A stretch of 64,000 nt of DNA from Fistulifera solaris (taxonomy: Eukaryota). The position numbers and the translations under genes were made by a program. Numbering within the stretch: position 1 is the stretch's first letter; each line of letters starts with the position of its first letter. The notes under the pieces are model-generated. The model did no database searches, was not told the DNA's origin, and saw only the letters and a list, made by a program, of their open reading frames with translations. Shown here one piece after another: positions 5,170 through 13,317 of the stretch. The stretch is taken from contig AP026128.1 of NCBI GenBank assembly GCA_030295235.1, positions 496,001-560,000 of the forward strand, in the 5' to 3' direction.

Positions 5170-5671
5170 TTAATGAGCCGCCGCACGGGCACGTTGCTGT
5201 GAGTTGACGTTCTTGATATCTTCCCGTTTGGCCAGTGCTCGTTTGTGCGAACCCAATCGACGCTTGGCAAACTTGTAAATTCGCTTATCGGCCGAAGAAC
5301 CGCCCGTCTTGATCATATCCAAAATACGACGTTCATAGGGAGCCAAACCGACGACTTCACGGGCAATTTGACGGCACATGGTGACGCGCTTGCCGGCTTT
5401 CTGCGAAAACGAAAAGAAGGAGTGAGTCGACAGAGACGAAATTGTGGCTTTTTTCGGATACACGAAGATAATTGGTGGGAAGCGGGGTAGAGAGACTCTG
5501 CTGTTTCGATAGCTGACTTTGACTCCGCTCCGTGCACACCAACTCGTTCGGCATTCGACACGATGACAGAAGCAAACTTACACCCTTGGAATGACTGGGC
5601 TTGGCTTTCAGTTCACGTTGTTGCGTGATGTGTCCGGAGTTGGCACCTTTGGCGTAACCGTTTCGTGTCAT
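5170..5671 (-). CDS. RPL36: 60S ribosomal protein L36 (eL36), 2 exons (5671-5582, 5400-5170)
   Basis: MTRNGYAKGANSGHIT...KPSHSKG / KAGKRV...REVVGLAPYERRILDMIK...KFAKRRLGSHKRA; in-frame GTAAGT...CAG intron 5581-5401. Confidence 0.95.
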
Positions 5672-6154
5672 GGTATATTCTATTTCAATAATATTAGAAG
5701 AATAATCAAATAATTGATCCTCAGCGTTGATGTTGTTGTTGCGTGGATGGTGTCGACGAGACGGACGGAAGGAGTTTTTTTCTACGTAGGTGTACGTAGA
5801 AAATGTACTGTGATTACCCTTTACCGCTCTACTACAAAAATTGTGCGCTCGTCCGGCAACAACGAAAAAAGTTTCCTAGAGAGCTATTTTTATCGTCACA
5901 GCTTGGTAAGGTGAGACCATGTGATGTTTCTTTCTTTGATCAATTCAATAAAATGAGTCGTTGATTCAAGTGTGTGTAGAAGAGAGATGGAGTCCTATCC
6001 ACGTCGGAATGATGAAGCCGTTTTCGTTTCGTTCACTTTGAATGATGTTTTCAAAATTGATTCTAGCTCGCTTTTACTCACGTGACCTTGTTTTGATTCC
6101 TCTGTTTTAAAGCTTGACTGTTTTTACTTCATTTATCTATAACACACACACAAC

Positions 6155-6497
6155 ATGCCGGACAATCGCTGGACGCAAAACACACGCCACTCGTACAATA
6201 CGGCTTCCGCCAAACTGCGGGCCATTCGCATGCCCGGTGGTGCCCTCAAAAGTCAACGTGTGACCAAAACCACCAAAGGACCCCGTTGCTCCGATTGCAA
6301 GAAAGTTCTTCCCGGAATCAAGCACATGAAATCGTCCGAATATGCGCGAACCTCCAAACGAGAACGTACCGTCAGTCGTTGTTACGGGGGGATCGACGTG
6401 CCATGCCTGTGTGCGCCAGCGAATTATGCGGGCGTTCTTGTTGGAAGAACAAAAGGCCGTCAAGAAGGTATTGGCGGAACGAGCGGCCAAGAAGTAA
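6155..6497 (+). CDS. RPL34: 60S ribosomal protein L34 (eL34); extra G in G6 run at ~6386-6391
   Basis: RHSYNTAS...RMPGG...KGPRCSDC...LPGI...RTVSRCYGG; removing one G gives [34 protein letters not shown] (TAA 6495-6497). Confidence 0.95.
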
Positions 6498-7460
6498 ATA
6501 ATAGAGAAATCTAATCCATCAAAATGATGTTACGGTTTTTGCTATTGTGTGTTTTTGTTGTCGATTGTATGTAAACGGCAGGGAGGTTGGTAGAAAAAGC
6601 ACATCGTTCCTTACTGGATGCGATCTTCCTGCCTGCTGTTTGGTTATCAAAAGATTAACGAAGTTAGACTCCATTTACGTTCCGCGATCCTGCTTTAGCT
6701 TGAGGGTTAGCAAGGAAATCAACGTCGTCGTAGCCACAACCTGCATCGCTTCTAGGCCACAACGATGTCATTATTGAGTGCACTAAAAGTGTTTTGAGGA
6801 AATAATTACGGAGTATTCTATTGCGGAGTTCTTTCAGTACGAAATACCATCAACATTATTATTTTTAAACGCAATGTATTGTTTCATGGCTCCGAAAATC
6901 GTTCGGATCGGTGACGGGCAATTTTACTATAGTATCAAAGTGTCAGTTTACGCTCTCCAGGAATGAATTTCAGTCACGATGGAACTACGAAAATAATTTT
7001 TTATTAATAAATGAAACGGCAACAATGAAGTCGACAAATGCTAGCACTAAGTGCACGGTCAAGTGATATTGCATTTACATCACGCAGTCTGAAATGACAC
7101 GGCAACAAGAGAAAAGTTTGCTTGTTTATCTTGAAAAGTTATAAATGTGTTGTGCAATACAGTATATCTAATCTCCATTTAAACTTGTTTTAATAAAAAA
7201 GAAGCTCATCGTCGCTTTACATACCCTTTCGATTTTTCACCCCGAAAAGATCCGGCCTTTCTATTATACCAGTATAGACTCAAAGTGTAGTTCAACTTTA
7301 CCAAGACCGGATTATCATCTCGAGTCGCGAGTGTCAGAGTTACGGACGACATCATTCAACTTTCTTCGCACTCTGAGTGCGTGCGATGATCGACATGGCG
7401 ATCCACTTGGAACGAACGCCTTATTGTGTAAATAAGGCAGCCCCGTCAAGTAGGTTCTGA

Positions 7461-10055
7461 ATGATTGACATGATGCTGTTACTAAGTTTGCTTCTTATCG
7501 TGGCGGTTCGAGTGCAATCCTTCCTCTCCGTTGCCACCCAACAACCTCTTTCCTTTCAACTCTACAGCAGCTCTACCGGAATCCTTTCGGAAACCGTCTC
7601 CGTAGAAAGAATAGGAGATTGTTTGGGGTCAGGAAGGTGAGTTGAAAGGAGTAGGCTTCATAGTTCCGTATGTCTCTCTTTCTCATTACTGCTTCAGTTA
7701 CGGCACGGTTCATCTTCTTCAAACAGTACAAGCGGATCGGCGCAAAACATGGTTGGTAGGAAAGCGTGCCTGGACGTTGGAAGAATTAAGCGAACAAGAA
7801 CCACAAAGTAAATTGGAGGAACGAGCTGAACGATGCCGTTATTATTTGGATGTAGAAGCGTATTGTCTTTCCAAATTTCAGAATCAGGAGAATATAGTCC
7901 CCTTTCGGGGTCGCGCCAAAGATGAGCAGGGGCGTGAATGGATGTTAATGGATTTAATGAAAGCCAATAATTTGGAAGACGATGGAATGCCACACGCCAG
8001 CAGTGTTGCCCCTAGTTTGCAGGACATTATCGAACAAGATCGCACGGATCCACACAACGATCATCATTTGTTTTACTTGTCGGCGGCGTTGGGAGTTCAT
8101 GGAGATTTAGCTCAAACATTGGATGTCGTCATCTCCAACCTTTTGCATGCCTTGAAAGCAACACACGAATTGAGCATCGTCCATCGGGATGTCAAACCAG
8201 GCAATCTTCTCGTGGTTCCCTCGGGCCTGCTGGTGTTATTGGATTTCGGGAGTGCCGCGGATTTGTCACCCAAGGGCTGGTTTGCGAAGCGAATGGGATG
8301 GGAACAAGACCGCGTGGCAGTTTCGCCCATTTACGCGGCTCCGGAAGTATTTATCAATCCGGCAAATGTACAAGAGTCACTGACGTTCGATTGTTTCAGT
8401 GCGGGGCTGTTAATATGTCAATTGCTTTTTCAATATCTGGATGAACGAACCGAATCCGGATTTCATCAGCAACTTGACTCGGTAGATTGTGATTTGGACG
8501 AATGGCTCCGCACCGCCTTAGCGTGTAAAGTGAGTCCGGCCGGTATGGACGATGCCATGGAAGTGTTGCAGAAAAGACCCGGACTCTGGCGTTTGCTGAA
8601 AGGCTTGCTGCAAAAGGACCCTAGAAATCGTATCTCTAGTGCCAAGGCTTTGGAGTTGTGGAATTTAATTCTACAAAATGCGTCCACGGAAGTTCAGAAA
8701 CGCGTCTTTGACGCCCGGCTGGATGATGGGGCTTACTTGAAGGATTGCTTGGAGCTTTACAGTTCGTGTCCAGTGACCCCCACGGTATGGCCTCTACACT
8801 TTGTCGCGACATTTGATCGAACAAAGCCGCTCGGTTTATATCTCTCGGAAGTTGAATTGGACGAGGAAACGAAAGCTGAGTTTAGTGCTGAAGATCGCAA
8901 GAAATGGGACGCTGCGACGAGTAACATGCCTCCCGGAGAAGTATTTGTTCAGGGACTTGTTCCTGATAGTCAAGCAGATACCTTGGGTATTTTTCAGGTC
9001 GGAGATCGATTGGAAGGTGTAGGCGAACTACCTGTTTCGGGTGCAGGCTTCGAAAAGGTCTTGGAACTTTTAAAGGATCAACCCAAGCAAAGTAAGTTTG
9101 TTACGCTCCACTTTGCAAGAAAATCAGCGATCCAAATAACAAAAATGAATGAAAGCGGAATCATGGATGGACCTGTAAAGGTCGTGGATCAAGGAGCCTG
9201 GACAACTAAAGGTCGTCGTCCTTCTCAAGAGGATGCGTACATACTTAATGAAGTTCTTGGTTTAAAGGAAAGGTCCTTGTTAGTGGCAGGTGTGGCTGAT
9301 GGCCATTTAGGGAGAGCAGCATCCAGCTTTGTCAAGTCAGAGCTTCCGCTCTCTGTTTCTGAAATACTGTGGAAGCAACCAAAGAGCGATACGAGCTTGG
9401 GGCAAATGCTGTTTGACGCATGGGATCAAGTATGCGAAAATTATCGAAGCGGATGCATATCCGGAGAAGAATGCGCCGCAGATTACAATCCTCGGGAAGG
9501 ATTTCTGATGGCCAACACCGGGTCCGTTGACGCAATTGCAGGAACAACCACGTGTCTCATGGCTGTTGACACACAAACAAGTCAAATGTCCTTCTTAAAT
9601 TGCGGCGATTCCAGGGGCCTTGTTGTGGATAAAGAGGGCGATCTGGTCTATGTCACTAATGATCACACACCCGAATATGATCAGCAAAGGCTTATTGAGG
9701 GTCGTAGTCAAGGAAAAGACTATGAGCCACCAATGTGCCGAGCAGGTCGATGGTCCGTTGCAGTAGGAGACTTTTGCTATGCCTTAGCACGGTCCTTGGA
9801 GGGTCCGTTTGCGACGTCCAAGGGTATCGTTTCGGACCCGGATATTGATCAGTTTCATGCGCCTCCCGGTGCCACCGTGGTGGTAGCCACGGATGGTTTG
9901 TGGGAAGTGATGGACTCGGAACAAGTGGCTCAAATAATAGCAAAATGAGAAAGCACTCGGAAAGTGCTGCCGAGGTTGCGAAAGTGCTGTGCGGACTCGC
10001 TGTTCAAAATGGTTCAAGTGACAACGTGAGCGCGGTTGTTGTGTACATGGAATAG
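7461..10055 (+). CDS. Plastid-targeted STN7/STN8-like Ser/Thr kinase - PDZ - PP2C phosphatase fusion; intron 7637-7697, frameshift ~9943
   Basis: Signal peptide ...LLLIVAVRVQS-F. Splicing creates the GSGSYGTV loop. Kinase motifs HRDVKPGN, DFGSAADL, PIYAAPE. PDZ (KPLGL...VFVQGL...QVGDRL). PP2C motifs GRRPSQED, ADGHLG, NCGDSR, ATDGLWE and, after +1 A, GSSDNVSAVVV*. Confidence 0.85.
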
Positions 10056-10676
10056 CTATTGGTGTTGGCAGCACTACTAGCAATACTGATGGTGACCCGA
10101 GACACAATGTTGCGTATACAGCAGCGATTTATTACACCAGGGTTCACTTTCTGGAGGCTCAACGTGTGGATGCGGGGATGATTGGGAACCTTTTATCATC
10201 GAGACCAGAATGAAAACGTTTTTCATTTGGTAAAGTGTGCGTGCCGACAAAAACCGACCCCACGATAAGCCTCAAGAACATCAGCTACACAACGTCTCTC
10301 ATGTCCCTTTTCACATTTCTTCGGGTAGGGTCTGTTCTACCAAAAAAAACCGTTGTCATGGTAATAGTTGGATGTTTTATTACCTTGTCAAGTGTCAATA
10401 ATTGCATCGCACCAGTTTTGACGGTGACGTAGGGTGTTACTTCGTGTGACTGAATCGAGATCCAGTCCCGGAAATAACACGCACAGCGTTTATTATATTA
10501 TTGACACCACAATTCTTTTCTTCACATTAACATCCTTTATTCCGCTGTATCATGTGTCATTTTTATGCTTATTCGACGTACAAACGAAATTAATTGCGAT
10601 TTCATTTCGCGCGGGCTCGAAAAGTGAATTTTGAAGCCCGTAAGCGCACTCAAACTAGAAGGAGAAAGGCATCATC

Positions 10677-13317
10677 ATGGAATATCAATCGCATTTGAGT
10701 TTTTCATCGTTTCAAGATGAAGTGCATTCTCGGAAAGCGAAGCATCATCGATATTCGGTTGATTTATCCGCCGATCGTCGACGCGCATCTCTATTTGGAG
10801 AGTCAACTGCATTGCATGACGCAGAAGATCTCTCTCCGCTTTCACCGTCAGAGAACTATCCTCGTGTCAACAATCATCATTGGCTACGAGATGCGTTGCA
10901 CCAAATTCCTGCAGTTCTTTTAATCGGTATTTTTCATTTGATGGTAGGGATCCCTTTTGGTGTTTCTTATTTTCCCATTGGTTGGGCCACGGATGACGAC
11001 TCCTCGGGTGACAACACAAAATCTTTTCCCGTTGAAGGGAAGGAAGCTTTAGGGATTCGCATGTTTCTCTTCTCCACGATGATCGGGCAAATTGTCTTTA
11101 CGTATGCATCCGGCTTTGCGAGTCCGATTGGCTTACAAATGATTGAGAACGTGCCGTTTTGTCACGAACTGGCTACCATCGTCATTCGGCATCAAGGATA
11201 CGGTGTAGAAGCCTTGTCAACGCTCATGTTTCTCTTTGGCTTGGCATCACTGGCAGTGGGCTTCGTATTTGGAGCTCTGGGTTACTTTCGACTGGGTCGG
11301 ATCGTCTATTATTTCCCCACGCATGTTCTGGTCGGCTGTATTGGTGGCATTGGAGTCTATGTTGCGAAGACGGCAGTGGAGGTGGCGTTGAACGCACCGT
11401 TTGGAGATAATACCATACGGCGCAACTTTCATCTGTTGAGAGTGGTTCTTTACTTTGAAGTGAGTCTACGGATTCTTCAAAAGCTCACCTGGGATCATGT
11501 GGCAAAGAAGCCACGATATGCATTACTATCACCCATCTTTTTTTGCTGCATCACACCAGTTTTCTACGCTGCCTTGTTTTTATTGCAGGTCCCCATTCAA
11601 GACGCCCGGGACCGAGGCTATTTCTTTCCGGCGCTGAATGGTGACTGCAGGGACTGTTCCATTGTCAACGAACATCTTTGTGACATGTGGCGTGTTCTCG
11701 ATGTAACGACGTTTTCCTGGCCAGCCTTGTGGGAATCCCTGCCCACATTACTGGCGCTGATTCTTTTTCGTTAATTCATGTGCCCATCAATATACCCGCT
11801 TTTGCAATCTCCACCAACACAGAAGTAGACATGAACAAAGAATTGTTAGCGCATGGCTATGCAAATCTTTTGCAGGATTGTCAGGTGGCTTGCAAAATTA
11901 CATGGCTTACACCCAGTCCGTATTGTATCACAAATCAGGCGGTTTTGGAAGAATGTCAGGATACGGGGTTGCTGCGTTGACTGCTGTTCTATTTGTTGTC
12001 GGACCAACCATGGCTTCGTATACTCCGCGTTGCATGGCTGGTGCTCTTTTGCTTCATGTTGGATTGGATCTCTTTCTTGAGGGCGTCTATGATTCCTATG
12101 GAAAGTTTGATATGCTTGAATATGCGGGTATATGGTTCATTACGGTGGTAATGACAGTGAAAGGTATGGAAGCCGCTATGATAGCTGGCTTCCTAGCTGC
12201 TATTTCTACTTATGTGATGCAAAATATGGCTTATGTAAACCCGATTCGAGGGTCAATGACGGCAGCAACGCTTCGAAGTAGTCGTTTGAACCGCGACAAT
12301 AAGAGTCGGAGTATTTTACAAGACCCCACAACAGGCCGACAGCGAATTTTGGTAATCCAATTACAGGGTCATCTCTTCTTCGGGAACGTGGCACAGCTTT
12401 CGGAAACGGTACAGCAACTGTTGACCATGAAGATCGAAGATGAACAGAACAGAGTGCTCATTTTAATATTGGACTTCTCTTTAGTTCTCAGTATTGACTC
12501 TTCAGCCGCACAATCCATTGTGAAACTGAAAAATGCAATACAAGCGAAGTTCGACGTACATTTGGCAATATTCGTCTCCGGATCAGAGGACGGATTTCAA
12601 TGTGAGTACAACCTGACAGAGGAATTGGCGGAAGTTGGCAAACGTGGCCACCAGGTAGAAGGGATTGTCGACGAGACAACCGGGCTGATACGGTCTTCAC
12701 TTAATGAACGGCACAATTTCAAAGGCAGTCACGTCTGTAGTTCGCTTGACAAGGCCTTGATCTACGCCGAAGATGCCCTTGTACATTCTGTTGACCCGAG
12801 CTTGCTCTTTAACAACATTCACATGAGTCACCCTCCCATTCGGCAAGACTCTTCATTAGATGAAGAAAAAGATGTTGCGCTGAGATATTTGCAAAACTTA
12901 TGCCCCTCAGGAGATCCAAGAACTGTGCAGATTCTCTTTTCAAAATTCAAACGAGAGACTTATGTGAAGGACCAGTATCTATGGAAACAAGATTCCCCGG
13001 GAGATTGTGCAAAGCTTCTTGTTTGGGGTGAATTGATAGCCTACATTGAGAACGAAGCCAATACTTTTGAGATAGTTGAAACTGGCAATACAGTCGGTGA
13101 ACTTTGCCTAGTGGACGACGTACCACGAATGAGTTCTGTTTGCTGTTTGTCAGAGACCGCTGTTCTTTATAGCTTGAGTCGGGATGATTTCACCTTTCTT
13201 GTTGAGATGCACCCGCATGCAGCACGGCTCGTTGATATACTTTGCATTCGCTATCTTTCCTCGCGAGTGCAGCTCGCGAGCAATCGTATATTCGAGACAC
13301 GCTGTCTACCTGTTTGA
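10677..13317 (+). CDS. SulP/SLC26 anion transporter with STAS and cyclic-nucleotide-binding domain (yeast Vsb1/YGR125W-like); frameshifts ~11768 and ~11870
   Basis: Multi-TM region (QMIENVPF, YFPTHVLVGCIGGIG, FSLIHVPINIPA, GGLQNY), STAS (QLQGHLFFGN...ILDFSLVLSIDSSAA) and CNB domain (GNTVGELCL...PRMSS). Both breaks are missing T in T-runs. Confidence 0.88.

What the first reader, a model, noticed from the sequence alone, without database searches (positions are those of the whole stretch)
7461..10055. Plastid kinase-PDZ-PP2C: an STN7-like kinase and a PP2C phosphatase in one polypeptide
Seen: a bipartite plastid presequence (VQS-F), an intact kinase with STN7/Stt7-like segments (DFGSAADL; PIYAAPE; FDCFSAGLLICQLLF...FHQQLDSVDCDLDEW), a PDZ domain and a PP2C domain retaining the main metal-binding Asp motifs. 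Kinase to PP2C is one continuous ORF (7698-9945), so the fusion is not a frameshift artefact. Established: in plants STN7/STN8 are opposed by separate PP2C phosphatases (PPH1/TAP38, PBCP), and diatoms lack classical state transitions. Inference: a self-contained writer/eraser switch for thylakoid or stromal phosphorylation.
Basis: partly seen in the sequence, partly recalled or inferred. Interest (0 to 1): 0.75.

Follow-up and report, generated by a model that had tools for sequence, protein, structure and literature searches.

The report
Algal plastid kinase-PDZ-phosphatase fusion gene
This diatom gene encodes one probably chloroplast-imported protein that joins an enzyme adding phosphate groups (a distant cousin of the plant light-balancing kinases STN7/STN8), a docking domain and an enzyme removing phosphate groups, which gives a concrete, uncharacterised candidate for switching chloroplast proteins on and off in diatoms and related algae.

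Summary
Real gene, not an artefact. Two exons (7461-7636, 7698-10055) encode about 844 aa: signal peptide ending VQS-F, kinase, PDZ, PP2C. The window's frame stops at 9946-8 only because the assembly lacks one A; contigs from two studies carry it and the second genomic copy is open. Kinase and PP2C catalytic motifs are present in 98 of 100 full-length homologues. PDZ is confirmed by fold. The family spans diatoms, Parmales, Dictyochophyceae and Chrysoparadoxa. The kinase is STN-related: Micromonas Stt7 is the best match among 48,161 chains (Z 30.1, next kinase 22.8), and trees join it with STN7/STN8 (100/100) but outside the canonical STN7/STN8 clade (100/99). It lacks the thylakoid helix and lumenal cysteines, so it is a sister family, not STN7. 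The PP2C is not especially like TAP38 or PBCP. Best reading: a soluble plastid writer/eraser docked by its PDZ; substrates unknown. Plant VTC3 is a known kinase::PP2C fusion without PDZ. No paper on this family was found in ten searches; the scan noted it before in another genome (e1-7549030).

The parts
7461..7636 (+). Exon 1 (coding): signal peptide, short transit-peptide-like stretch, first kinase strand and start of the Gly-rich loop
   Evidence: equivalent to the N-terminus of P0004
7461..7520 (+). ER-type signal peptide ending VQS; in-frame ATGs also at 7470 and 7473
   Evidence: hydropathy 3.4 over 9 residues; heuristic, no SignalP available
7521..7595 (+). Transit-peptide-like region starting with Phe; Ser/Thr rich, but no Arg/Lys in positions +2 to +20
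   Evidence: boundaries inferred
7637..7697 (+). 61-nt GT..AG intron inside the Gly-rich loop
   Evidence: one contig of run X7 skips it; also in the C14 copy; removal restores the family Gly loop
7698..10055 (+). Exon 2 (coding) to the true stop TAG 10053-10055
7596..8682 (+). STN7/STN8-related Ser/Thr kinase domain (spans the intron); beta3 Lys 7762, HRD 8182, DFG 8242, APE 8338
   Evidence: Pfam PF00069; fold and profile matches to MsStt7d 4IX3; trees
8779..9129 (+). PDZ domain with an acidic helical insert; binding loop R-x3-L-G-L
   Evidence: model pLDDT 92.9; all 50 listed matches are chains aligned through a PDZ-type fold, best Z 11.3; Foldseek
9172..10052 (+). PP2C (PPM) phosphatase domain with all metal-binding Asp motifs
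   Evidence: Pfam PF00481; motifs conserved in 68-69 of 69
9941..9945 (+). Assembly error: A-run one base short, giving a false stop at 9946-9948
   Evidence: runs X1 and X2 carry the extra A; C14 copy in frame

Best explanation
A nuclear gene for a soluble plastid-stroma protein of ochrophyte algae that carries an active STN7/STN8-related kinase and an active PP2C. Shown: the architecture, its conservation, intact catalytic motifs and the STN relationship. Inferred: after import the protein has no membrane anchor, so the central PDZ docks it on a partner, most likely at the stromal face of the thylakoid. There kinase and phosphatase act on the same small set of photosynthetic-membrane proteins, and a light-linked stromal cue sets which activity dominates (thiol redox on conserved cysteines, Mg2+ or pH). 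It would tune phosphorylation during light acclimation without being a cytochrome b6f-gated state-transition kinase.
For: Order kinase<PDZ<PP2C in 99 of 100 and all catalytic motifs in 98 of 100 full-length homologues (the first 100 of 120 listed). Purifying selection on all three domains. Signal peptide plus small residue|F/W in 47 of 75 usable diatom-group and 5 of 11 usable non-diatom members, against 4 of 88 mostly green STN proteins and 0 of 85 generic kinases. MsStt7d is top by fold (Z 30.1, rmsd 2.7, 300 aligned; next kinase 22.8) and by kinase-only profile (130.7 bits, next 96.7). A reciprocal STN profile scores the window protein 89.9 and the C14 copy 104.4, against at most 72.7 for 92 generic kinases. 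Tree support 100/100. It is the only STN-like kinase found in this genome with three queries. Known relatives act on thylakoid proteins (PMC12661317, passages). Cys105, 115, 414, 643, 649, 692, 737 (P0004 numbering) are held in 63-69 of 69 diatom-group sequences.
Against: No substrate, activity or localisation data. This copy's transit peptide has no Arg/Lys in +2..+20, although a net positive charge is described as necessary (PMC4329603, passages); 42 of 47 diatom-group members with the motif do have one. The window protein alone and the diatom-only profile did not list MsStt7d among the top 60, nor did the C-lobe at E<=10; the link appears only with broader profiles or by fold. Profile scores overlap at the low end (family minimum 61.5, generic maximum 72.7). 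Most of the cysteines are not kept outside diatoms. A diatom paralogue has kinase+PDZ without PP2C, so the phosphatase is separable. Diatoms show no evidence of state transitions (PMC9237682, passages).
Confidence: 0.45

Rival explanations
1. Same protein and location, but it regulates stromal metabolism or plastid signalling, like plant VTC3 (kinase::PP2C), not thylakoid complexes.
For: Soluble, no membrane helix. VTC3 is a kinase-PP2C fusion needed for light-induced ascorbate accumulation, reported in green plants and red algae. The PP2C is closest to PPM1/clade-A types, not TAP38 or PBCP.
Against: The kinase belongs with STN kinases. The VTC3 descriptions read mention no PDZ. No named VTC3 appeared in the lists, but these lists were cut at 120, and one search gives no names.
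Confidence: 0.25
2. The PP2C mainly resets the protein's own kinase (or a PDZ-bound partner), acting as a built-in timer, while the kinase phosphorylates other targets.
For: RD-type kinase with an invariant Ser before P-x-Y-x-A-P-E in 69 of 69; tethering favours cis action (inference); domains look loosely linked in the model (pTM 0.59, low-confidence linker 538-546).
Against: That Ser sits where many kinases keep a structural Ser/Thr (recalled); no phosphosite data; the model does not define interdomain contacts.
Confidence: 0.15
3. It is the true ochrophyte orthologue of STN7 and drives a cryptic state-transition-like antenna movement.
For: An AU test holding the family with STN7-type sequences was not formally rejected (lnL 41.9 lower, p=0.0508). 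The best A3-profile scores among STN proteins (up to 171 bits) are from STN7-type sequences.
Against: Canonical STN7+STN8 clade excludes it at 99-100 in three trees. Only 35 residues lie between cleavage site and Gly loop, with no helix and no lumenal Cys pair, which Stt7 needs (PMC2650728 abstract). Asp-Pro in 119 of 119 printed STN segments against Ser-Pro here.
Confidence: 0.07
4. The protein goes to the periplastid compartment or ER rather than the stroma.
For: Signal peptide; no positive charge in the first 20 transit residues of both genomic copies.
Against: Phe/Trp at +1 across the family and Arg/Lys in 42 of 47 diatom-group members; +1 Phe is the plastid marker (PMC4329603, passages).
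Confidence: 0.07
5. Pseudogene or mis-assembly: the frameshift removes the last metal ligand, or two genes were joined.
For: In the window the frame stops at 9946-8, before the DN motif.
Against: Contigs from two studies carry the missing base; open second copy; dN/dS 0.088; five records labelled complete MMETSP transcripts hold both domains (P0035, P0044, P0053, P0094, P0101).
Confidence: 0.01

Closest known systems
STN7/Stt7 and STN8/Stl1 thylakoid kinases (solved relative MsStt7d, PDB 4IX3)
   Same: Whole-domain similarity including the C-lobe helices (hhalign of A3 with named Chenopodium STN8: probability 99.95, 279 columns); best fold match; one clade against 24 or 12 other kinases; plastid targeting.
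   Different: Outside the canonical clade; no transmembrane helix, no lumenal Cys; Ser-Pro in place of Asp-Pro before the APE segment; shorter insert after APE; fused PDZ and PP2C.
Plant VTC3 (At2g40860) kinase::PP2C
   Same: N-terminal Ser/Thr kinase and C-terminal PP2C in one chain; light-related phenotype; function unresolved (passages).
   Different: No PDZ mentioned for VTC3; reported from green plants and red algae; its kinase is recalled as a different (TKL-like) group, not tested here.
TAP38/PPH1 and PBCP thylakoid phosphatases
   Same: PP2C fold and metal motifs; they oppose STN7/STN8 (PMC12661317, passages).
   Different: Separate proteins; no special likeness: TAP38 101 bits against 157 for PPM1B; Z 26.8 (TAP38) and 22.1 (PBCP) against 28.9 for PPM1K.
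Diatom kinase-PDZ paralogue (e.g. Cyclotella cryptica HJC23_002647)
   Same: Same kinase family, plastid-type presequence, C-terminal PDZ-like region.
   Different: Ends after the PDZ, no PP2C; not found in this genome with one query.

Membership tests
STN kinase superfamily (broad) | Kinase closer to Stt7/STN7/STN8 than to other kinases by fold and profile | tested here: met
   single-sequence and diatom-only searches did not show it
STN kinase superfamily (broad) | One clade with STN7/STN8 against other kinases | tested here: met
   100/100 on 44 rows, SH-aLRT 100 on 102 rows under two models; outgroup small (24, mostly bacterial-type plus a few eukaryotic kinases)
Canonical STN7/STN8 | Nested inside the STN7+STN8 clade | tested here: not met
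   canonical clade 100/99 excludes the family; but AU test of family+STN7 p=0.0508, so orthology is disfavoured, not strictly rejected. Group labels S7/S8 are mine, from recalled motifs; only P0438 and P0508 carry an STN8 name
STN7/Stt7 | Transmembrane helix before the kinase | tested here: not met
   35 residues between cleavage site and Gly loop, beta strand from residue 44 in the model; STN post-helix motif in 71 of 73 STN proteins against 5 of 40 family members
STN7/Stt7 | Two lumenal N-terminal cysteines | tested here: not met
   one unconserved Cys before the Gly loop, inside the kinase N-lobe; feature from PMC2650728 abstract
STN7/Stt7 | Activation through plastoquinol/cytochrome b6f and LHC phosphorylation | not testable with these tools
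   needs biochemistry
Active Hanks-type Ser/Thr kinase | Gly loop, beta3 Lys, alphaC Glu, HRDxKxxN, DFG, APE | tested here: met
   activity itself not assayed
PP2C/PPM phosphatase | RxxxED, DGH, GDSR, DG and DN metal motifs | tested here: met
   68-69 of 69; DN is in frame once the assembly error is allowed for
TAP38/PPH1 or PBCP orthologue | Closest to these among PP2Cs | tested here: inconclusive
   both rank below PPM1A/B/K and clade-A PP2Cs; no PP2C tree was built
PDZ domain | PDZ fold and hydrophobic-Gly-hydrophobic binding loop | tested here: met
   Gly436 invariant in 69 of 69 and 31 of 31; Pfam PDZ 17 of 31, not in this protein
VTC3 | Orthology of kinase and PP2C domains with At2g40860 | not tested
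   no VTC3 sequence was at hand; the STN affinity and the PDZ argue for an independent fusion (inference)
Diatom stromal proteins (ASAFAP type) | Signal peptide followed by F/W/Y/L at +1 | tested here: met
   heuristic only; SignalP/ASAFind not available
Diatom stromal proteins (ASAFAP type) | Net positive transit peptide | tested here: inconclusive
   0 Arg/Lys in +2..+20 here; present in 42 of 47 diatom-group members

The most novel reading that the evidence does not exclude
An ancient sister lineage of the STN7/STN8 kinases persists across ochrophytes (and perhaps other red-plastid algae), fused to its own eraser, and is the main enzyme that sets reversible phosphorylation of antenna or photosystem proteins in diatoms. 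It would replace the plant four-protein STN7/STN8/TAP38/PBCP system by one PDZ-docked, stroma-sensing switch.
Probability: 0.25. Interest if true: 0.85.

Novelty: new variant of a known kind. Interest (0 to 1): 0.62.

Why it matters
Published statements hold that diatoms have no STT7/STN7 homologues (PMC10089185, citing Grouneva 2013) and that STN7/STN8 are confined to green-plastid lineages plus cryptophytes (PMC10735309). That stays true for orthologues, but a clear sister family exists from diatoms to Chrysoparadoxa, with a plastid-type presequence and a fused phosphatase. It names a specific, conserved gene to knock out when asking who phosphorylates plastid proteins in algae without state transitions, and it bears on where the STN kinases came from.

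Tried and rejected
Pseudogene and frameshift artefact: rejected. The short 'kinase+PDZ' hits mostly end at one of two shared positions followed by unrelated letters, as for gene calls running into introns (18 viewed); they were not counted as a family. One of them (P0121, labelled a complete MMETSP transcript) could be a retained-intron form; this genome has no intron there. Single-sequence and diatom-only searches of solved structures did not list Stt7; Foldseek on the whole model listed only phosphatases. ESM Atlas gave generic kinase clusters and PDZ leads at 0.85-0.90. NCBIfam gave only sub-threshold generic hits. The hydropathy count before the Gly loop did not separate groups (28 of 73 against 14 of 40) because signal peptides fall in that window. 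No RNA holder was listed for the stretch; X3 covers little and was not used. Careful trees on 102 rows did not finish; quick trees and a 44-row careful tree were used. Canonical STN-type and kinase-PDZ queries found no separate gene in this genome: not found with these queries, not shown absent. No complex was predicted, as no partner is known. Ten paper searches found no description of this family. Grouneva 2013 was not read; supplements of PMC5462543 could not be read and those of PMC10735309 and PMC4329603 were not opened, so the protein may sit unnamed in their tables or trees.

Full report
Gene structure. The finding lies on the + strand of contig C13 of a 51.7 Mb, 62-contig genome that holds a second copy on C14, 87% identical over 3,093 bases. 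The second exon of the C14 copy translates letter for letter to the last 786 residues of a protein named FisN_22Lh148 of Fistulifera solaris, so the organism is most likely that diatom or a very close relative. Coding starts at 7461. A 61-nt GT..AG intron (7637-7697) interrupts the Gly-rich loop; one contig of run X7 skips exactly this stretch (RNA status is a guess, one contig, depth 2.6). Exon 2 runs open through kinase, PDZ and most of the PP2C. In the window it stops at 9946-8 and the last 36 residues, with the final DN metal ligand, lie in another frame. One contig each of runs X1 and X2, from two studies, match the window with no other difference and carry an extra A behind 9941; the C14 copy is open. 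The break is an assembly error and the protein has about 844 residues. dN/dS between the copies is 0.07-0.10 in all three domains.

Domains. Pfam finds kinase and PP2C. In 69 aligned homologues the catalytic-loop, DFG Asp/Gly and APE residues are invariant, beta3 Lys and alphaC Glu are present wherever the row has letters, and the PP2C motifs are held in 68-69 of 69. Pfam misses the PDZ here but finds it in 17 of 31 members of a broader set. A model of window 8779-9129 (pLDDT 92.9) matches PDZ-containing chains throughout both lists (best Z 11.3, rmsd 2.1, 85 aligned; Foldseek E 1e-5).

Distribution. One search gave 209 hits among 8,000 candidates and listed 120. Of the first 100 (20 partial ones left out), 99 have the order kinase, PDZ, PP2C and 98 all catalytic motifs. 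Named ones are pennate and centric diatoms, and five are labelled complete MMETSP transcripts. The profile search of 1.84 billion representatives (best 150 listed) added members 25-32% identical with the same order. Of the 23 of these looked up (among 30 proteins), four clusters carry organism names: Triparma laevis, Parmales sp. scaly parma, Rhizochromulina marina and Chrysoparadoxa australica. The fusion therefore predates diatoms within ochrophytes; the hosts of the unnamed members are unknown. A separate diatom paralogue has kinase and a PDZ-like end but no PP2C.

Targeting. No SignalP was available. A heuristic (hydrophobic 9-mer, then small residue followed by F/W) scores 47 of 75 usable diatom-group proteins (of 100) and 5 of 11 usable non-diatom ones (of 17), against 4 of 88 mostly green STN proteins and 0 of 85 generic kinases. 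Phe at +1 is the diatom plastid marker and a positive transit peptide is described as needed (PMC4329603, passages). Both genomic copies lack Arg/Lys in +2..+20, while 42 of 47 relatives have it. Plastid location is likely (about 0.85) but unproven.

What kinase is it? The window sequence and the diatom-only profile did not list Micromonas Stt7 (4IX3). Broader evidence did. The template-free model of the C14 protein (pLDDT 84) has 4IX3 as best match of 48,161 chains, Z 30.1, rmsd 2.7, 300 residues, next kinase 22.8. A kinase-only profile of 15 members gives 130.7 bits against 96.7 for the next; the distant member P0163 alone gives 65.5 against 52.1. The same profile pulled plant and algal STN-type proteins at 135-148 bits; bacterial-type proteins with two kinase-like stretches reached 97-122 bits and single-domain generic kinases 93 or less. 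One search then supplied 118 further STN-type proteins, one named STN8 of Chenopodium. A profile from half of them scores the window protein 89.9 and the C14 copy 104.4, against median 51.5 and maximum 72.7 for 92 generic kinases; the weakest family members (61.5) overlap that range. Trees of 102 kinase domains (quick search, LG+G4 and C20 mixture) and of 44 (careful) put family and STN proteins together against the outgroup (100; 100/100) and keep the canonical STN7+STN8 clade apart (99-100; 100/99); the family's own monophyly is weaker. Forcing the family with STN7-type rows costs 41.9 log units, p-AU 0.0508, which is borderline. The outgroup is small, and my STN7/STN8 labels rest on recalled motifs. 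The protein lacks the membrane helix and lumenal cysteines that Stt7 needs (PMC2650728, abstract) and has Ser-Pro where 119 of 119 printed STN segments have Asp-Pro. Verdict: an STN-superfamily sister kinase, not STN7.

The phosphatase. It is closest to PPM1A/B/K and clade-A plant PP2Cs; TAP38 and PBCP rank lower. No PP2C tree was built, so its origin is open.

How it probably works. Shown: three intact domains under purifying selection, widely conserved, with a plastid-type presequence and no anchor. Inferred: the PDZ replaces the membrane helix as the means of placement, and kinase and phosphatase then set the phosphorylation of the same local targets, with the balance tipped by stromal light signals. 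Seven cysteines held in 63-69 of 69 diatom-group sequences could sense thiol redox, but only two to three of them are common outside diatoms. Thylakoid targets are favoured because all characterised relatives act there, and because no other STN-like kinase was found in this genome. Confidence 0.45. Rivals: a VTC3-like stromal regulator (0.25), a self-resetting kinase (0.15), a true STN7 orthologue (0.07), non-stromal location (0.07), artefact (0.01).

What is known. [quoted passage not shown] Ten searches found no account of this family; the library lacks most subscription papers and unread supplements may list it. Kinase::PP2C fusion as such is known (VTC3), and so are STN kinases; the STN-sister kinase with PDZ and PP2C is a new variant. 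An earlier scan note (e1-7549030) reached a similar reading in another genome; it is not independent evidence, and I saw it only.

Verdict. Observation confirmed, interpretation partly supported; new variant of a known kind; interest 0.62.

Noticed in passing
window 10659-13317 (+): SulP-type sulfate/anion transporter with STAS and cNMP-binding domains, split over two overlapping frames at about 11761-11774: a short intron or another one-base assembly error.
   Followed up: no
window 5170-5577 (-) and 6143-6514 (+): Divergent pair of ribosomal protein genes L36e and L34e upstream of the finding.
   Followed up: no
proteins P0284-P0301: Diatom paralogue family: STN-related kinase plus PDZ-like end, no PP2C, plastid-type presequence; named in Cyclotella, Thalassiosira and Extubocellulus; not found in this genome with one query.
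   Followed up: partly
protein P0302: 365-aa stand-alone STN-like kinase without helix, PDZ or PP2C, from an unnamed record; falls between the fusion family and canonical STN with weak support.
   Followed up: partly
protein P0216: Family member that appears to join kinase and PP2C with no PDZ between them.
   Followed up: no
proteins P0477, P0487, P0506, P0508, P0523, P0524, P0527: A further clade of long STN-type kinases in green algae and Klebsormidium (SH-aLRT 98-99), several without the N-terminal helix.
   Followed up: no
L003 (G000 C14:488000-494500): Second, intact copy of the gene (dS about 0.38), consistent with a hybrid two-subgenome genome.
   Followed up: yes
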